Sequence record: PZ564402.1
DNA length: 59,352 nucleotides
Direction: 5' to 3' (one strand)
Source of the DNA: a phage
Part shown: one piece after another, positions 23,360 through 29,593 of the stretch
Layout of the letters: every line of letters begins with the position of its first letter
How positions within the stretch are numbered: the first letter of the stretch is position 1
Position numbers and translations under genes: made by a program
Notes under the pieces: generated by a model
Databases searched by the model: none
What the model saw: only the letters and a program-made list of their open reading frames with translations
Told to the model about the DNA's origin: nothing

Positions 23360-24505
23360 ATGAACGATAACTACCAGAATAACTATGTGGTAGGTCGCGG
23401 AACGGTCTACTTTGACCGATTCCAAGACGGCACTAACCGTAAGACTGGTGAAATGTATTTCGGTAACACGCCGGAATTCACCATCAATACCGATTCCGAA
23501 ACGCTGGATCACTACTCTTCCGATCACGGTATGCGCGTGATGGATGCGTCCGTGCTGCTGGAAGCGTCTCAGGGCGGCACCTTCACCTGTGACAACATCA
23601 ACGCGGATAACCTCGCGCTGTGGTTCCTCGGCGAAGTATCGAACACCACTCAGACGCAGCAGACCGACGCGAAAGAAGTGTTCAACCCGATTATGCGTGG
23701 TCGTTACTACCAACTCGGTACCACCGACGATAACCCGACGGGTGTTCGTGGCGTGACTAACTTCCAGATGGTCAAGGCGGATGCGTCCATCGCGATTTCC
23801 GTGGGTAGCGGCGACATCACTTCCATCGTCGGTGCCACTGTCGTTAACCCGGCGGGCAACTACGAAATCGATCTGGAAGCGGGCCGCATCTACATCGAGC
23901 CAGATTCTACCGACCTGTCCGGTAACGTTCAGATCGCCGTCCAGTACGACGTCGATGCGCAGAAACGTACGCTGGTCATCGGCAAGTCCAACATGGTGTA
24001 TGGCGCGCTGCGCATGATCTCCGACAACCCGGTAGGTCTGAACAAGAACTACTACTTCCCGAAAGTGTCTATCGCGCCAGACGGCGACTACGCACTGAAA
24101 GGCGACGACTGGCAGGTCATGTCCTTCACCTTCAAGGCCATGCAGCTTAACAACATCACGCAGCGCGTCTATATCGACATCGTCGAAGCAGCCGCAGCGG
24201 TTGACCCGACCGCGCAGCGTACCATTGAAATCACGCCTGCATCGACTACGGCCACCACTGGCGGCGCGGGTGTCGTTTGTACCGTGACTGTCCGTGACGG
24301 CACTGGCACGGCGGTACAGGGCGACGCGGTGACGTTCACCACTGTGGCCGGGGCCACTGTCACGCCGAACAGCGCGACGACCGGGGCTACCGGGACGGCG
24401 ACCACTACGGTCAATCGCACCGCAGCGGGTACCGCTACTGTTACCGCGACGCTGGCAAACGGCAAAGCGGCCACTACGGGAACCATTACCTTCTCGGCTC
24501 CGTAA
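23360..24505 (+). CDS. major tail protein with C-terminal Ig-like domain
   Basis: AGGAGA RBS; Thr/Ala/Gly-rich C-terminus TVTVRDGTGTAVQGDAVTFTT typical of Big-type Ig domains; strong terminator follows. Confidence 0.65.
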   Translation: MNDNYQNNYVVGRGTVYFDRFQDGTNRKTGEMYFGNTPEFTINTDSETLDHYSSDHGMRVMDASVLLEASQGGTFTCDNINADNLALWFLGEVSNTTQTQQTDAKEVFNPIMRGRYYQLGTTDDNPTGVRGVTNFQMVKADASIAISVGSGDITSIVGATVVNPAGNYEIDLEAGRIYIEPDSTDLSGNVQIAVQYDVDAQKRTLVIGKSNMVYGALRMISDNPVGLNKNYYFPKVSIAPDGDYALKGDDWQVMSFTFKAMQLNNITQRVYIDIVEAAAAVDPTAQRTIEITPASTTATTGGAGVVCTVTVRDGTGTAVQGDAVTFTTVAGATVTPNSATTGATGTATTTVNRTAAGTATVTATLANGKAATTGTITFSAP

Positions 24506-24523
24506 TACATGCCAAACTGATAA

Positions 24524-24549
24524 AGCGCCTTCGGGCGCTTTTCTTTTAT
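24524..24549 (+). terminator. rho-independent terminator (GCGCC-TTCG-GGCGC + T-rich tract)
   Basis: UUCG tetraloop hairpin then TTTTCTTTTAT after major tail gene. Confidence 0.6.
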
Positions 24550-24601
24550 CTGCAAGTATGTGCTACATTAACGACGGATTAGCGCAAAGGAGATCCGTCA
24601 A

Positions 24602-25063
24602 ATGTCACTATCAGATTACACACCAGAAATCGAAGAAATCACCATCCCTGCCAGACGTGGTAAAAAGGCTGGCTCGTTTAACGTCCGTGGGCTTTCCTTC
24701 CACGACATTTCCAAAATCATCCGCGTTCACTATCATGACCTTGATGGCCTGTTCGACCTGTACCAGAAGACCGCCGGGGAAGACCTGACGGCCATTGCTA
24801 CCGGGCGTTTCGCCGTGTCGCTGGTATCAGATGCGCCGGGGCTGGTGGCCCACGTCATCGCGCTGGCCGCTGACGAAGAAGCCGAACTGGAAAAGGTTCA
24901 GACGCTTCCCCTGCTGGTGCAATTCGACGCCTTGAAGAAGATTGCCGGACTGACGTTCTCGGACGTTGAAGAAGTAAAAAAGATGTTCGCTCAGGTAATG
25001 GAGCAGATCGGCAAGATGAAGGGCGAAGAGGCGGTGTCGAAACCCGGTCAAAGCGCGAAATAG
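24602..25063 (+). CDS. tail assembly chaperone (lambda gpG-like)
   Basis: Position immediately upstream of tape measure gene; contains slippery heptamer. Confidence 0.65.
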   Translation: MSLSDYTPEIEEITIPARRGKKAGSFNVRGLSFHDISKIIRVHYHDLDGLFDLYQKTAGEDLTAIATGRFAVSLVSDAPGLVAHVIALAADEEAELEKVQTLPLLVQFDALKKIAGLTFSDVEEVKKMFAQVMEQIGKMKGEEAVSKPGQSAK

Positions 25064-25305
25064 TTCTCGACTTCCACAATAACCTTCGTGCCACGGTGTC
25101 CTTCCTCATGTCCGAGGGACACCCGGCCGCCCGGCATTACCCGTTAGGATATTTGTGGTCAGAAACGAAAATCGCGAAGCGCCGGGTAAACGCGGGTTAT
25201 GTCACCCAAAGTTTACTGATGCAGTCCTGTATCGGCGCTGTACTCAACGGCAAGAAAGGCGGGAAAGAGTATAAAAAACTAATCAAGGAATTATCAGATG
25301 GCTAA
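24602..25305 (+). CDS. tail assembly chaperone frameshift fusion product (gpGT-like; -1 shift at 24976-24982)
   Basis: Downstream ORF 25096-25305 lies in -1 frame, is open back to 24970 and ends overlapping tape measure start. Confidence 0.55.
24976..24982 (+). other. programmed -1 ribosomal frameshift slippery heptamer A_AAA_AAG
   Basis: X_XXY_YYZ in chaperone frame; the -1 frame is open from 24970 to 25305. Confidence 0.6.
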
Positions 25306-28300
25306 CAGCAAAGACGTCGAGCTACGAATCCGGGCGAGGGACTACAGCCAAAAGCCCTTAAAGGCTGTGACCAGCGCTATCGAACAGATGGCAAAGGCGC
25401 AGGACGAACAGCGTAAAGCAGCCGAGCGCGGTGAAGTCTCGACGCGTGATCTGGAAGCCGCATACAAAAAGCTGGAAAGTGCCGGGAGCCAACTGCTCAA
25501 ACTCAACTCGCTGATCGAGGTGTTCAAACGGCAGAATCAGGCTATGACGGAGGCGACGGCCAAGACCGAAGGACTCCGCCAGAAACAGGCCGATCTCCAG
25601 AAGACCTACGATTCCACCGAGAAGGTTACGCAGAAACAGGAACGGGCGCTGGCCCGGGTTACACGTCAGGTCGAAGCCGCAACCCGCGCGGAAGCGAATC
25701 AGGCCGAGCGTGTCAATCGGGCAACCCGCGACCTCGAACGATACGGGATCGAGACGTCGAAAGTTGGGGCGGCCCAAGCGGGTATCGTCACCAGCGTCGC
25801 GCAGGTCAACCGTGTCCTCGAACGTCAGGACGAAATCATTTCAACGTCTGCCGCTGCGGCCGCACAAGCGAAGGTCATTCGCGGATTGCAGCAGCAGGCG
25901 GATCAGGCGATGGCAACGGCGCGCGGGTACCAAACCCTCGGCCGCGTGGTGCAGCAGGCAACCGGACAACTCGGGCCGCTTGGCACGCAGATCCAGACCA
26001 TCGTCAGCCCGGCAGAAGCGGCGCGCCGCACGCTGTCCGGACTTGAGAATCAGGTACACGGCGTTACCGCAGAACTGGCTCGCAATAGCAAGGAAGTGGA
26101 AAACGTCGCTCAAAAAGTAAGAATGCTCAACGAGGCGAATAAAACCGTCTCGGCGCTGGCGCAGCAAATCGACCTGTACCGTCAGCAGGTGGCAACCCTT
26201 CGGAACGCCCGCACTGAATACCAACAAGCGCGACAAGACGTCATCAAGTTAGCACAGCAGATGCGCACCGCGACAACTGATACGGGTGCTTTAGGTATTC
26301 AGATGCAGGCCGCCCAACAACGGCTTTCCGCAGCCGCGACGGCCATGCGAAACACGGCCACGGCCGCCCGGTCTACCCAAGCGGCATTACGTGCTGCGCA
26401 GGTGGACACGCGTAACCTGTCCGATGCGGAAGCCCGGCTGATCTCCACCAGCCAACAATCGGCCGCAGCACTTAACACGCTGTCCACCGCGACCAACCGT
26501 AACAGCCAAGCGGCGCGCGACGGGTCGAAAGCGTGGTCACTGTTCCGCGACGAGGGCCGTACCACGCTGTCCTTCCTGCAACGTATTCGCGGTGAAGTGC
26601 TGGCGCTGACGACCACGTATGTCGGTTTTCAGGGGGCTATCAATCTGGCGGGAGGCGCGATCGACGCGTACAAGAACCGTCAGCAGGCGATGGTCAAAAT
26701 TGCGAACGTGGTGGGTAACAGCCAAGCGGCCATTAACAAAGAGTGGGAATACATGGTCGGTCTGGCGAATACGCTCGGGATCGACATCACCACCCTGTCA
26801 CAGTCGTACACGAAATTCGCCGTATCCGCGAAGGCGGTCGGCCTGTCATTGCAGGACTCAAAGTTCATCTTCGAAAGCGTAGCGAAAGCGGGCCGTGTAT
26901 TCCACCTGTCACAAGATGACATGGAAGGCGTATTCCGCGCGCTGGAACAGATGTTGTCGAAGGGTCAGGTGTATGCGGAAGAACTGCGCGGCCAATTGGG
27001 TGAACGTCTCCCGGCGGCCTTCGCGCTGTTCGCAAAAGGCATGGACATGACCACCGCCGAACTGATGAAGGCGATGGAAAACGGGGAAGTCACTGGCGAG
27101 GCGGTTATCAACTTCGCCCGCGAGCAGGCCAAAGCGATTGACGCTCAACTCGCCACGGCGCAGAAAGGTGTCGATGCGATGGAAGCGCGCGCCCGCAACG
27201 CCATGAACGCATTTCAACTGGCATTGGCCGACGCAGGCTTTATCGAAGCGTACGTGCAGATGCTTAACAAGATCACCGACTTCCTGAACAGCGAGGATGG
27301 TCGGGCGGCCGCCGTTAAACTCGGCGAGGCGTTCGGCACGTTGGCCGACGCTGTGACGTGGTGCATCGAGAACGTGGACACGCTGATCACCGCGTTAAGC
27401 GTTCTGGCCGGGCTGAAAGTGGTGCAGTTCATCGGCGGCATGATTTCGGGACTTAAAAACCTGCTGCCGCTGTTCAGCACGCTCGGTAAAATCGGCGATG
27501 GCATTATAACGATGCTGGAAGGTGTCGCGGCCAGAATGATTGCGGCACAAGGGGCCGTAGGGCTTCTCGGCATCGCGTTGAAAGGGCTGACCCGGTTAAT
27601 CCCGATTGTCGGGTGGGCGCTGCTGGCGTACGACATCGGTGCCATCATGTACGACCAGTCGCAGACCTTCCGCGAGGCGGTCAACGCGATCATCCGGGAC
27701 TTCAAGAACCTCGGGAATCAACTGGCAGCCGTCGTCGAGTCCATCCCGGCGCTGCTGTACGATCTGGCGGTATCGGTGCTGCGCCCTATTACCACGATGT
27801 TCGCCGACACCACGCAGGCGATTATTAAGTGGATCGCGGATGTTCTGAAACTGATCCCGGGCGTTGGTCAAGGGCTGTCCGAGTGGGCCATGTCCATCGG
27901 CGACGACCTGACGAAAGAGCAGCGTGGCTTCCTCGAATCGACTGGCCGCATTTGGGACGACGTCAATAAACAGTGGGTGAAACTGAACGACGAAATGGTC
28001 GCGAAGAACGCCGATGCGACTGACAAGATTCGCGGGCAGGTCAACCAACTGGCCGCCGACATGGCCGCTATCACGAAGGGCGAAGGATTCCAGTTCACCC
28101 AAGACCCGGGAACAGGCGTCACGAAGCGCAGCCGCGAGATCGCGGGCCTGACGAAAGAGTTAGGCAAGATGGAAGAGGCGGCCAAAAAAGCGGACGTCGC
28201 GTCGCGTAAAGCCGAGCAGCGGAAGAACCTGTCCGGCCGCCTCGCCATCATTGACGAGGAATTTGCGCCGCAGTACGCCCGCGCTAAGTCGATCGGCGGC

Positions 28301-29593
28301 TCGGAGGGTGATGCCCTTACCAAACGTCTTGACGCCGTTGTGGCCGCGCGCAAGAAGGCAGAAACGACCCTCTTCAACTCGCAGCAACGTACGACGGGTG
28401 GTATCAAGAAACAGGAAAACGCATTACAGGCGCTGATCAACAAGTACAACGAGTTGAATGCCGCCGTCGGTGTGAAGGAAGTTAAGATTGACCCTAATGC
28501 CACGTTTGACGACCGTCTGGCCGCTAAACTGGCCGCCGTCAATACGCAGTACGATCAGCTGATCGCCAAGTCGAAGAAACTCGGGACTGGCGGGCAGAAT
28601 CTGGCCGGGCAGTTCGAAGACCTGCGCAAACGCAATCTGGAATACGCGACCACGCAGGCCAAACTCGAAGAACTGAAACGCATTGAGGATCAGTTAAACT
28701 CGCAGCAGGAGACGAAGAAAAACCTGCTGGACGAAATCAATGCCAAACGGCAGGCCGGGGTTATCTCTGAAAACGAAGCCGTCGCGCAGACGGTAGCCTT
28801 GTATCAGAACATGAATACGGGCATCGCGTCGTCGGCCGAGCAGCTTGACGCCTTCGCGCAGAAGATTAAAGACACGATGTCGCCGGAAGAATTCAGCCGC
28901 ATCATGGCTCAGATTGCATCCGTCAAAGCCGGGCTGGTGGACGTCACAGGCACCTTCACGACGATGGACACGACTGTCGTTCAGGGCGTGCTGGACGGAA
29001 TGAGCACGGCGCTGTCATCCATCGTTGATGAAATGGCGTTGGTGGTGGCCGGGTCACAAAGCATTGGCGATGCGTTCTCGAATCTTGGCGTGGCCGTGGC
29101 ACGGTTCTTCGCGGACTTCTTGCAGAAGATCGCAATGGCAATCTTGCAGCAGATGGCGCTCAACGCGTTGGCCTCTATGGGGGGTGGCATCGGTTCGGCG
29201 GCCGTTGCATTAGGCGGCACCGTGGCGAAACATAACGGCGGCACCGTCGGCAGTAAGACAACTGGCGGCACGCAGATGAAGGGCGGGATCAGCCCGGCCA
29301 TGTTCGCGAATGCCCCGCGCTTCCATGATGGCGGACTGCCGGGCTTGCGTTCTGACGAGGTTCCGACCATTCTGCAAAAAGGCGAACAGGTGCTGTCGAA
29401 GGATGACCCGAATAACGTGCTTAACCAGTCGCGCGGCGGCGGCCAGACGGCGCAGTCGCCACAAGGTCTTCGCTTCGTGCTGGTGGATGACAGGTCGAAA
29501 GTGCCGGAAGCCATGAACACGCCGGAAGGAGAAAAGGCGGTGATGCAGATTCTTCAACGCAACGTACCGACGTTGAAAAACTTAGTGGGATAA
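25298..29593 (+). CDS. tail tape measure protein (1431 aa)
   Basis: Very long Ala/Gln-rich alpha-helical ORF after chaperone pair; AAGGA RBS. Confidence 0.9.
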   Translation: MANSKDVELRIRARDYSQKPLKAVTSAIEQMAKAQDEQRKAAERGEVSTRDLEAAYKKLESAGSQLLKLNSLIEVFKRQNQAMTEATAKTEGLRQKQADLQKTYDSTEKVTQKQERALARVTRQVEAATRAEANQAERVNRATRDLERYGIETSKVGAAQAGIVTSVAQVNRVLERQDEIISTSAAAAAQAKVIRGLQQQADQAMATARGYQTLGRVVQQATGQLGPLGTQIQTIVSPAEAARRTLSGLENQVHGVTAELARNSKEVENVAQKVRMLNEANKTVSALAQQIDLYRQQVATLRNARTEYQQARQDVIKLAQQMRTATTDTGALGIQMQAAQQRLSAAATAMRNTATAARSTQAALRAAQVDTRNLSDAEARLISTSQQSAAALNTLSTATNRNSQAARDGSKAWSLFRDEGRTTLSFLQRIRGEVLALTTTYVGFQGAINLAGGAIDAYKNRQQAMVKIANVVGNSQAAINKEWEYMVGLANTLGIDITTLSQSYTKFAVSAKAVGLSLQDSKFIFESVAKAGRVFHLSQDDMEGVFRALEQMLSKGQVYAEELRGQLGERLPAAFALFAKGMDMTTAELMKAMENGEVTGEAVINFAREQAKAIDAQLATAQKGVDAMEARARNAMNAFQLALADAGFIEAYVQMLNKITDFLNSEDGRAAAVKLGEAFGTLADAVTWCIENVDTLITALSVLAGLKVVQFIGGMISGLKNLLPLFSTLGKIGDGIITMLEGVAARMIAAQGAVGLLGIALKGLTRLIPIVGWALLAYDIGAIMYDQSQTFREAVNAIIRDFKNLGNQLAAVVESIPALLYDLAVSVLRPITTMFADTTQAIIKWIADVLKLIPGVGQGLSEWAMSIGDDLTKEQRGFLESTGRIWDDVNKQWVKLNDEMVAKNADATDKIRGQVNQLAADMAAITKGEGFQFTQDPGTGVTKRSREIAGLTKELGKMEEAAKKADVASRKAEQRKNLSGRLAIIDEEFAPQYARAKSIGGSEGDALTKRLDAVVAARKKAETTLFNSQQRTTGGIKKQENALQALINKYNELNAAVGVKEVKIDPNATFDDRLAAKLAAVNTQYDQLIAKSKKLGTGGQNLAGQFEDLRKRNLEYATTQAKLEELKRIEDQLNSQQETKKNLLDEINAKRQAGVISENEAVAQTVALYQNMNTGIASSAEQLDAFAQKIKDTMSPEEFSRIMAQIASVKAGLVDVTGTFTTMDTTVVQGVLDGMSTALSSIVDEMALVVAGSQSIGDAFSNLGVAVARFFADFLQKIAMAILQQMALNALASMGGGIGSAAVALGGTVAKHNGGTVGSKTTGGTQMKGGISPAMFANAPRFHDGGLPGLRSDEVPTILQKGEQVLSKDDPNNVLNQSRGGGQTAQSPQGLRFVLVDDRSKVPEAMNTPEGEKAVMQILQRNVPTLKNLVG

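What the first reader, a model, noticed from the sequence alone, without database searches (positions are those of the whole stretch)
24602..25305. G/GT-type programmed -1 frameshift at A_AAA_AAG in the tail assembly chaperone
The slippery heptamer at 24976-24982 is identical to the classic dnaX-type site. The -1 frame is open from 24970 to 25305 and ends overlapping the tape measure start, matching the conserved chaperone frameshift of long-tailed phages.
Basis: partly seen in the sequence, partly recalled or inferred. Interest (0 to 1): 0.45.

Follow-up and report, generated by a model that had tools for sequence, protein, structure and literature searches.

The report
Chi-phage tail chaperone G/GT frameshift

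Summary
A_AAA_AAG lies at 24976-24982 in phase with the 153-aa ORF 24602-25063. The -1 frame is open from 24970 to 25305, and its stop overlaps the tape measure ATG at 25298. One correction: 25096 is GTG; the first in-frame ATG is 25108.

The window is a Chivirus (about 99% identical to YSD1 and Chi). The predicted 234-aa fusion is 100% identical to the joined CDS gp23 deposited for phage Chi.

Comparison of 142 related loci (63 lineages at 70% identity, down to about 30% identity to the window) supports the frameshift:
- 59 of 63 lineages carry an in-phase X_XXA_AAZ heptamer at the homologous position, which is exactly 26 nt after a conserved LTF motif wherever that motif could be placed unambiguously.
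- The preceding codon encodes five different amino acids, yet it always ends in the base the slip requires.
- The -1 frame always runs to the tape measure start.
- The conserved T domain begins upstream of any possible internal start codon.

Only the heptamer is dnaX-like. The window has no upstream Shine-Dalgarno-like element and no convincing downstream structure. No experimental proof exists for this phage. Novelty: already known. Interest is low.

The parts
23360..24505 (+). Major tail protein gene with a C-terminal Ig-like domain (upstream neighbour)
   Evidence: phrog_807 at 4.7e-80 and Pfam Big_1; annotated as major tail protein in Chi
24522..24549 (+). Intrinsic-terminator-like hairpin plus T-run between the major tail gene and G
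   Evidence: 8-bp stem with 5 G-C pairs and a TCTTTTAT tail; a terminator is annotated at the same place in Season12 and Seifer
24587..24592 (+). Shine-Dalgarno sequence AAGGAG for G, 9 nt before the ATG
   Evidence: read directly from the sequence
24602..25063 (+). G: tail assembly chaperone, zero-frame product (153 aa, 16.7 kDa, pI 5.4)
   Evidence: PF23789 at 1.8e-54 and phrog_5260 at 8e-64; 100% identical to Chi gp24; mass and pI
24976..24982 (+). Slippery heptamer A_AAA_AAG, in phase (codons AAA 24977, AAG 24980)
   Evidence: conserved at the homologous position in 59 of 63 lineages as X_XXA_AAZ
24982..25305 (+). T segment: the -1 frame read after the slip (107 codons plus stop, basic, pI 9.8). 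G 24982 is read twice.
   Evidence: the -1 frame is open from 24970 to 25305; matches phrog_11703 positions 124-232 at 5.4e-55
24602..25305 (+). GT fusion, join(24602..24982, 24982..25305): 234 aa, 25.8 kDa
   Evidence: Identical to P0003, the deposited Chi gp23 joined CDS; matches phrog_11703 positions 1-232 of 232 at 5.6e-115
25069..25302 (+). Conserved T domain (window DFHNNLRATVSFLMSEGHPAARHYP...; family consensus fy.glRr.VSLLLseGH..Ar.YP)
   Evidence: alignment of the -1 frame products of 63 lineages; the conserved block begins upstream of GTG 25096 and ATG 25108
24989..25004 (+). Marginal 4-bp hairpin GCUC-AGGUAAUG-GAGC, 6 nt after the heptamer; a doubtful stimulator
   Evidence: kept in 7-8 of 13 enteric relatives with one compensatory change in SAP012; RNAalifold predicts no consensus structure, and fold z-scores are not significant
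25298..29593 (+). Tape measure protein gene. Its ATG overlaps the GT stop (ATGGCTAA); SD-like AAGGA at 25285-25289.
   Evidence: Pfam TMP_3 at 8.2e-26 and phrog_2335; sequence read

Best explanation
The window is a Chi-like Salmonella siphovirus (Chivirus, Casjensviridae).

Proposed mechanism:
1. Ribosomes start at ATG 24602 and mostly terminate at 25063, giving G, a 153-aa acidic tail assembly chaperone.
2. A minority of ribosomes slip back one base when the P and A sites hold AAA (24977) and AAG (24980). The host's single tRNA-Lys (anticodon mnm5s2UUU) pairs weakly with AAG and re-pairs with AAA in the -1 frame.
3. These ribosomes read 107 more codons and stop at 25305, on top of the tape measure ATG. 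The product is GT (234 aa), which carries a basic, conserved T domain.
4. By analogy with lambda, the G parts of both proteins coat the tape measure protein, and the T domain recruits the major tail protein. The fixed low GT:G ratio is set by the slip efficiency.

What is shown here: the anatomy, family membership, conservation of the site, its phase and the -1 ORF, absence of an independent start for T, and identity to the annotated Chi gp23.

What is inferred: that the slip is ribosomal, that its efficiency is low (a few per cent, as expected for a heptamer without stimulators), and the roles of the G and T parts.
For: Identity of the phage and prior annotation
- The region 24400-25500 is 98.7-99.1% identical to phages YSD1 and Chi.
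- Chi gp23 is a two-piece joined CDS over the same span.
- The product is identical to the fusion predicted from the window.
- Joined CDSs are also annotated in Smarc5, Seifer, Soft, Redjac and Saba.

Family membership
- G matches PF23789 at 1.8e-54.
- The fusion matches phrog_11703 over positions 1-232 of 232.

Conservation of the site
- I analysed 142 usable loci, giving 100 distinct sequences and 63 lineages at 70% identity.
- 59 of 63 lineages have an in-phase heptamer at the homologous position. It is exactly 26 nt after the LTF motif wherever that motif could be placed unambiguously.
- The heptamers are A_AAA_AAG (30 lineages), A_AAA_AAA (19), G_GGA_AAA (6), G_GGA_AAG (2) and G_GGA_AAC (2).
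- The other four lineages have G_GAA_AAG at the same place or G_GGT_TTC 3 nt further on.
- The codon before the heptamer encodes V, P, A, L or I, yet it ends in the required base in 59 of 59 lineages, against a background mean of 0.21.
- The -1 frame reaches to within a few nucleotides of the tape measure start in 19 of the 20 annotated loci; pCB2051-A ends 57 nt short.

No independent start for T
- The conserved block starts at 25069.
- The window has no ATG, GTG or TTG in the -1 frame between the slip site and that block.
- 0 of 63 lineages have an SD-preceded start there.
- The residue at 25108 is Leu in 48 of 63 lineages.
- The codon at 25096 is GTG in only 24 of 63.

Other
- The window encodes no tRNA, so host tRNA-Lys decodes the site.
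- Literature: the lambda G:GT ratio of 30:1, the shiftiness of A_AAA_AAG and G_GGA_AAG in E. coli, and the G-T shift being conserved in long-tailed phages (PMC5009743). AAAAAAG was predicted as the G-T site in the related Burkholderia phage AH2 and is listed for other phages after Xu et al. 2004 (PMC3483164).
Against: - There is no protein-level or reporter evidence for this phage or for Chi in the literature I could search. The Chi genome announcement does not mention the frameshift in its text.
- I found no recognisable stimulator in the window. The upstream anti-SD duplex is only -4.1 kcal/mol, and 40% of background 24-nt windows bind at least as well. Downstream folds have z-scores of +0.63, +1.63 and -0.85.
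- The search pattern contained GG[VP][KGE]K. This biases that subset of loci towards Lys at the site at the amino-acid level, though not at the codon level.
- The lineages share ancestry, so the 59 of 59 count is not 59 independent events.
- Fold-level kinship of G with lambda gpG or other solved chaperones could not be shown.
Confidence: 0.92

Rival explanations
1. T is translated on its own from GTG 25096 or ATG 25108 as a separate small protein of 65-69 aa, with no frameshift. Several GenBank records annotate it this way.
For: An ORF 25096-25305 is listed. FSL SP-030 and Season12 annotate a separate 65-aa CDS starting at the ATG. pPM_01, Kokobel1, AchV4 and DSS3-P1 also annotate small separate ORFs.
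Against: - No SD-like sequence precedes either codon (CCACGGTGTCCTTCCTCATG).
- Conservation of the -1 frame protein begins at 25069, upstream of both codons.
- The Met is Leu in 48 of 63 lineages, and the Val codon is a non-start codon (GTC, GTA, GTT or another) in 39 of 63.
- This model would leave the strictly conserved in-phase heptamer and its wobble-base selection unexplained.
Confidence: 0.03
2. The GT product arises mainly by transcriptional slippage. RNA polymerase adds one A in the A6 run, giving an mRNA that encodes the same V-K-K-D... fusion, rather than by ribosomal slippage.
For: An extra A in the run would give exactly the same protein, so mass spectrometry cannot tell the two apart (inference from the sequence). 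49 of 63 lineages have runs of 6-7 A.
Against: - Ten lineages use G_GGA_AAR/C and four use G_GAA_AAG at the same position, with A runs of only 3-4. That is far below the lengths known to make bacterial RNA polymerase slip (about 7-9 or more; own knowledge).
- The codon phase is strictly conserved. Ribosomal tandem slippage requires this; transcriptional slippage does not.
- A6 is itself short for efficient slippage.
Confidence: 0.04
3. The heptamer is a chance or protein-driven Lys-Lys dipeptide, and the -1 ORF is a non-functional shadow frame, or the arrangement is a sequencing or assembly indel in a single G-T gene.
For: AAAAAAG is not rare in the window: 10 copies against 7.4 expected. One relative, Salmonella phage 35, clearly has indel errors here.
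Against: - The same two-frame arrangement is found in more than 100 independently sequenced genomes and metagenome contigs.
- The T domain is conserved at the protein level in the -1 frame down to about 30% identity of G.
- The wobble base before the Lys-Lys is always the one the slip needs, across five different amino acids.
- The expected number of chance in-phase copies in the overlap is about 0.001.
Confidence: 0.01

Closest known systems
[quoted passage not shown]
   Same: Same genes. G is 100% identical, and the predicted fusion is 100% identical to the deposited joined CDS. The heptamer and its position are also the same in Seifer, Soft, Redjac, Saba and Smarc5.
   Different: Nothing of substance. 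The window is another Chi/YSD1-like isolate, 98.7-99.1% identical over this region.
Phage lambda G/GT tail assembly chaperones (Levin, Hendrix & Casjens 1993; Xu, Hendrix & Duda 2004, 2013, 2014)
   Same: Position between the major tail and tape measure genes; a -1 slip near the 3' end of G; extension into a T domain; apparently a bare heptamer without strong stimulators; presumably a low GT:G ratio (PMC5009743). Some members of the Chi family even use lambda's own heptamer G_GGA_AAG (AchV4 and Phobos).
   Different: The heptamer is A_AAA_AAG rather than G_GGA_AAG. No detectable sequence similarity to lambda gpG (Pfam gives only PF23789), and no fold-level link could be shown. The ratio and the functions are untested here.
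E. coli dnaX gamma/tau frameshift cassette
   Same: Identical heptamer A_AAA_AAG, decoded by the same kind of single tRNA-Lys (PMC5009743).
   Different: dnaX has an upstream SD-like stimulator and a stable downstream stem-loop, shifts at high efficiency and terminates almost at once in the -1 frame (own knowledge). Here there is no SD-like element and no significant structure, and the -1 frame continues for 107 codons.
Burkholderia phage AH2 gp55/gp56 (BcepNazgul-like)
   Same: [quoted passage not shown] FSL SP-030's G is annotated as similar to BcepNazgul.
   Different: A distant relative with a different host. Its authors propose a downstream stem-loop by mfold, and none is convincing in the window.

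Membership tests
Tail assembly chaperone G/GT with programmed -1 frameshift (long-tailed phages, Xu et al. 2004) | The gene pair lies between the major tail protein gene and the tape measure gene | tested here: met
   Major tail gene 23360-24505, G 24602-25063, T to 25305, tape measure 25298-29593
Tail assembly chaperone G/GT with programmed -1 frameshift (long-tailed phages, Xu et al. 2004) | The second ORF overlaps the 3' end of the first in the -1 frame and has no initiation signals of its own | tested here: met
   94-nt overlap. There is no start codon between the slip site and the conserved T block in the window. 0 of 63 lineages have an SD-preceded start there.
Tail assembly chaperone G/GT with programmed -1 frameshift (long-tailed phages, Xu et al. 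2004) | An in-phase slippery heptamer X_XXY_YYZ lies within the overlap | tested here: met
   A_AAA_AAG at 24976-24982, phase 0
Tail assembly chaperone G/GT with programmed -1 frameshift (long-tailed phages, Xu et al. 2004) | The slip site and the two-frame arrangement are conserved among divergent relatives | tested here: met
   59 of 63 lineages have a canonical heptamer at the homologous position, and the other 4 have near-canonical ones. The -1 codon wobble base is correct in 59 of 59.
Tail assembly chaperone G/GT with programmed -1 frameshift (long-tailed phages, Xu et al. 2004) | Both G and GT are made, GT at a low fixed ratio | not testable with these tools
   Needs a western blot, mass spectrometry, ribosome profiling or a reporter assay. 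No published data were found.
Tail assembly chaperone G/GT with programmed -1 frameshift (long-tailed phages, Xu et al. 2004) | G and GT are required for tail assembly and absent from virions; G binds the tape measure and T binds the major tail protein | not testable with these tools
   Inferred from lambda (PMC5009743)
Tail assembly chaperone G/GT with programmed -1 frameshift (long-tailed phages, Xu et al. 2004) | Sequence or fold kinship with characterised chaperones such as lambda gpG | tested here: inconclusive
Pfam PF23789 Pre-tape measure protein / phrog_11703 | Score above the curated cut-off over the full length | tested here: met
   184 bits against a cut-off of 27, positions 1-146 of 149. 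The fusion matches phrog_11703 positions 1-232 of 232 at 5.6e-115.
dnaX-type frameshift cassette | Heptamer A_AAA_AAG | tested here: met
dnaX-type frameshift cassette | Upstream SD-like stimulator about 10 nt 5' of the heptamer | tested here: not met
   The best anti-SD duplex in the 24 nt upstream is -4.1 kcal/mol, no better than 40% of background windows
dnaX-type frameshift cassette | Stable stem-loop a few nt 3' of the heptamer | tested here: not met
   Only a 4-bp hairpin is present. Fold z-scores are +0.63, +1.63 and -0.85. There is no RNAalifold consensus among 13 relatives.
dnaX-type frameshift cassette | The shift leads to early termination and a truncated product | tested here: not met
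   The -1 frame continues for 107 codons, so the product is extended

The most novel reading that the evidence does not exclude
Across the Chi/Nazgul-like chaperone family the slip site is fixed in position, but the flanking stimulators appear to be lineage-specific. About 28 of 63 lineages have a strong SD-like GGAGGTGG element 6-9 nt upstream. The FoX4-like clade has a 6-bp hairpin with a covarying pair 5 nt downstream. The enterobacterial Chi branch, including this window, has neither and would rely on the bare, intrinsically very shifty A_AAA_AAG. If this is real, the GT:G ratio is tuned differently in different hosts, and the Chi branch compensated for the loss of stimulators through its choice of heptamer.
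Probability: 0.3. Interest if true: 0.25.

Novelty: already known. Interest (0 to 1): 0.1.

Why it matters
It matters mainly for annotation. The 234-aa GT fusion should be annotated as join(24602..24982, 24982..25305), alongside the 153-aa G. The 65-69-aa 'ORF' from 25096 or 25108 should not be called as a separate gene, as it is in several deposited Chi-like genomes. Names such as 'tail length tape measure protein' given to G and GT in RefSeq and PHROGs are misleading.

Biologically, this is one more instance of the conserved G/GT recoding event that sets the stoichiometry of tail assembly chaperones. It raises no open question.

Tried and rejected
- The search for related loci with the 17-sequence alignment A1 failed because no stretch was conserved enough. 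I replaced it with three sub-alignments.
- A downstream RNA stimulator in the window. Three folds gave non-significant z-scores. RNAalifold on 13 enteric relatives gave no consensus structure. The 4-bp hairpin at 24989-25004 shows some covariation but is lost in Seifer, Soft, pPM_01, Kokobel1 and Saba, so I did not accept it as a stimulator.
- An upstream SD-like stimulator in the window. It is at background level.
- NCBIfam gave no hit.
- A PDB search by sequence gave no meaningful hit.
- The Chi genome announcement (PMC4342425) and the YSD1 structure paper (PMC7385642) do not discuss the frameshift.
- The length of the -1 frame extension past a stop codon is not a discriminating statistic in this genome, because many genes overlap the next gene in that frame.
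- The +1 frame closes after 25082, so a +1 or -2 shift was rejected.

Full report
**What is in the sequence**

The ORF 24602-25063 (153 aa) starts 9 nt after an AAGGAG Shine-Dalgarno sequence. It follows the major tail protein gene (23360-24505) and a terminator-like hairpin at 24522-24549. AAAAAAG lies at 24976-24982. The zero-frame codons are GTA AAA AAG, so the heptamer is the in-phase A_AAA_AAG.

The -1 frame is open from 24970 to the TAA at 25303-25305, which overlaps the ATG of the 1431-aa tape measure gene at 25298 (ATGGCTAA). A -1 slip on the heptamer gives a 234-aa fusion of 25.8 kDa, made of an acidic G part and a basic T part.

25096 is GTG, and the first in-frame ATG is at 25108.

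**Is it more than chance?**

AAAAAAG itself is not rare: it occurs 10 times on both strands against 7.4 +/- 2.6 expected. However, 24976 is the only copy in phase 0 of a long ORF that is not a shadow of a larger overlapping one. About 0.001 in-phase copies would be expected by chance in the 30 codon positions of the overlap. The decisive evidence is comparative.

**Identity of the window**

The region 24400-25500 is 98.7-99.1% identical to Salmonella phages YSD1, 118970_sal1 and Chi (Chivirus, Casjensviridae), and 111 phage records match it.

In the Chi record KM458633, gp23 is a two-piece joined CDS over exactly the corresponding span, and gp24 is the short product. The deposited gp23 protein (P0003, 234 aa) is 100% identical to the fusion I derived from the window, with the junction at ...EEVKK|DVRSG....

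Joined CDSs are also annotated in Smarc5, Seifer, Soft, Redjac and Saba. Other records split T off as a small separate ORF (FSL SP-030, Season12, pPM_01, Kokobel1, AchV4, DSS3-P1).

G matches Pfam PF23789 'Pre-tape measure protein' at 1.8e-54. The fusion matches phrog_11703 over its whole length (positions 1-232 of 232, 5.6e-115).

**Comparative test**

I collected 20 annotated phage loci down to about 30% identity of G and 126 IMG/VR loci. Of these, 142 were usable. They gave 100 distinct G..T sequences and 63 lineages at 70% protein identity.

- **Heptamer position.** In 59 of 63 lineages a canonical in-phase heptamer sits at the homologous position. It is exactly 26 nt after the first base of the conserved LT[FL] motif wherever that motif could be placed unambiguously. 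The heptamers are A_AAA_AAG (30 lineages), A_AAA_AAA (19), G_GGA_AAA (6), G_GGA_AAG (2, lambda's own heptamer) and G_GGA_AAC (2).
- **Exceptions.** Three of the remaining lineages (the Ruegeria DSS3-P1 group, which includes L111, and L077 and L110) have G_GAA_AAG at the same place. L140 has G_GGT_TTC 3 nt further on.
- **Wobble base.** The codon before the heptamer encodes Val, Pro, Ala, Leu or Ile. It nevertheless ends in the base the slip needs in 59 of 59 lineages. The background probability from the same loci averages 0.21. This is selection on nucleotides, not on protein.
- **Reach of the -1 frame.** The -1 frame reaches to within a few nucleotides of the tape measure start in 19 of the 20 annotated loci (pCB2051-A ends 57 nt short), while the +1 frame closes early.

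There are two caveats. One IMG/VR search pattern contained the residues at the site (GG[VP][KGE]K), which biases that subset at the amino-acid level but not at the codon level. The lineages are also related, so the counts are not independent events.

**Independent initiation of T**

An alignment of the -1 frame products shows a conserved T domain (consensus fy.glRr.VSLLLseGH..Ar.YP...). In the window it begins at about 25069, only 6 nt after the G stop and upstream of both GTG 25096 and ATG 25108.

- The window has no ATG, GTG or TTG in the -1 frame between the slip site and that block.
- No lineage (0 of 63) has an SD-preceded start there.
- The residue aligned with the window's Met at 25108 is Leu in 48 of 63 lineages.
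- The Val at 25096 uses GTG in only 24 of 63.
- No SD-like sequence precedes either codon in the window.

Independent initiation is therefore not a conserved feature, and it cannot explain the conserved sequence upstream.

**Mechanism**

The best explanation is -1 tandem slippage of ribosomes on A_AAA_AAG. The window encodes no tRNA, so the host's single tRNA-Lys decodes both codons. In E. coli this tRNA makes A_AAA_AAG one of the most shift-prone heptamers, and G_GGA_AAG is also highly shift-prone (PMC5009743).

I found no stimulators in the window:
- The best anti-SD duplex in the 24 nt upstream is -4.1 kcal/mol, which 40% of background windows equal or beat.
- Downstream folds have z-scores of +0.63, +1.63 and -0.85.
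- RNAalifold finds no consensus structure among 13 enteric relatives.
- A 4-bp hairpin (24989-25004) is kept in Chi, SAP012 (GCGC/GCGC, compensatory), Smarc5, Redjac, L025 and L035 but lost in the other enteric relatives. I regard it as doubtful.

The site is therefore dnaX-like only in its heptamer. In architecture and outcome (a long extension and presumably low efficiency) it is lambda G/GT-like. In lambda the G:GT ratio is about 30:1 and is critical for tail assembly. There, G binds the tape measure and T binds the major tail protein (PMC5009743). Those functional roles are inferred here, not shown.

**Transcriptional slippage**

One extra A in the A6 run would give the same protein. However, 14 lineages use heptamers with only 3-4 A at the same position, and the codon phase is strictly conserved. 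Both points favour a ribosomal mechanism.

**Structure**

An AlphaFold2 model of the fusion (20-sequence alignment) has a mean pLDDT of 69.6. The G domain is confident (70-93), the linker 129-148 is disordered, and the T domain has low confidence.

**Literature**

The AAAAAAG G-T site has been described for the related BcepNazgul-like Burkholderia phage AH2, and that paper lists it for other phages after Xu et al. 2004 (PMC3483164). I found no experimental demonstration for Chi-like phages.

**Verdict**

The feature is already known and already annotated in the type phage. Interest is low. Its value is correct annotation: a joined GT CDS, and no separate T ORF.

Noticed in passing
window 24522-24549: An intrinsic-terminator-like hairpin (8 bp, then a T-run) lies between the major tail protein gene and G. 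It would lower transcription of G/GT and the tape measure gene relative to the abundant tail tube protein. A terminator is annotated at the same place in Season12 and Seifer.
   Followed up: partly
L012, L062, L063, L065, L073, L075, L078, L082, L084, L094, L108, L109 (FoX4-like clade), 6-25 nt after the heptamer: A 6-bp hairpin GGAGNC-N8-GNCUCC begins 5 nt after the heptamer. 93% of cells are paired, and one pair covaries (AU 8, UA 3, GC 1). It is a plausible frameshift stimulator in that clade and is absent from the window's lineage.
   Followed up: partly
about 28 of 63 lineages, 6-9 nt upstream of the heptamer (e.g. L082, L146, L095, L114): A strong Shine-Dalgarno-like sequence (GGAGGUGG or GAGGAGGU; anti-SD duplex -9.5 to -13.8 kcal/mol) lies just upstream of the slip site. 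It is confounded with the coding of E-E/V-G-G. The enterobacterial branch, including the window, has GAAGAAG instead.
   Followed up: partly
L017, L068, L111 (Ruegeria DSS3-P1 group), L077, L110; L140: Non-canonical slip sites occur at the conserved position. G_GAA_AAG would leave a P-site mismatch after the slip. L140 has G_GGT_TTC 3 nt downstream.
   Followed up: partly
GenBank/RefSeq records of Chi-like phages; phrog_11703 and phrog_9221: Annotation is inconsistent. In many records T is called as a separate 50-70-aa ORF. RefSeq and PHROGs label G, GT and T as 'tail length tape measure protein'. FSL SP-030 starts its tape measure CDS 69 nt downstream of the ATG that overlaps the GT stop.
   Followed up: no
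L024 (Salmonella phage 35, KR296689), locus 1849-1880: There are several single-base indels in and around the A-run (GTTGAAGAAGTAAAAAAGATG becomes GTGAAGAAGTAAAAAGAATG). They break G, and they look like homopolymer sequencing errors.
   Followed up: partly
phage records OR849473 and OR847783 ('Listeria phage LM 4-14-1 / 4-11-1', 1.5-1.6 kb), plus Staphylococcus-labelled records: Very short records labelled as Listeria or Staphylococcus phages carry Chi-like G sequence at 97% protein identity. They are probably contamination or mislabelled fragments.
   Followed up: no
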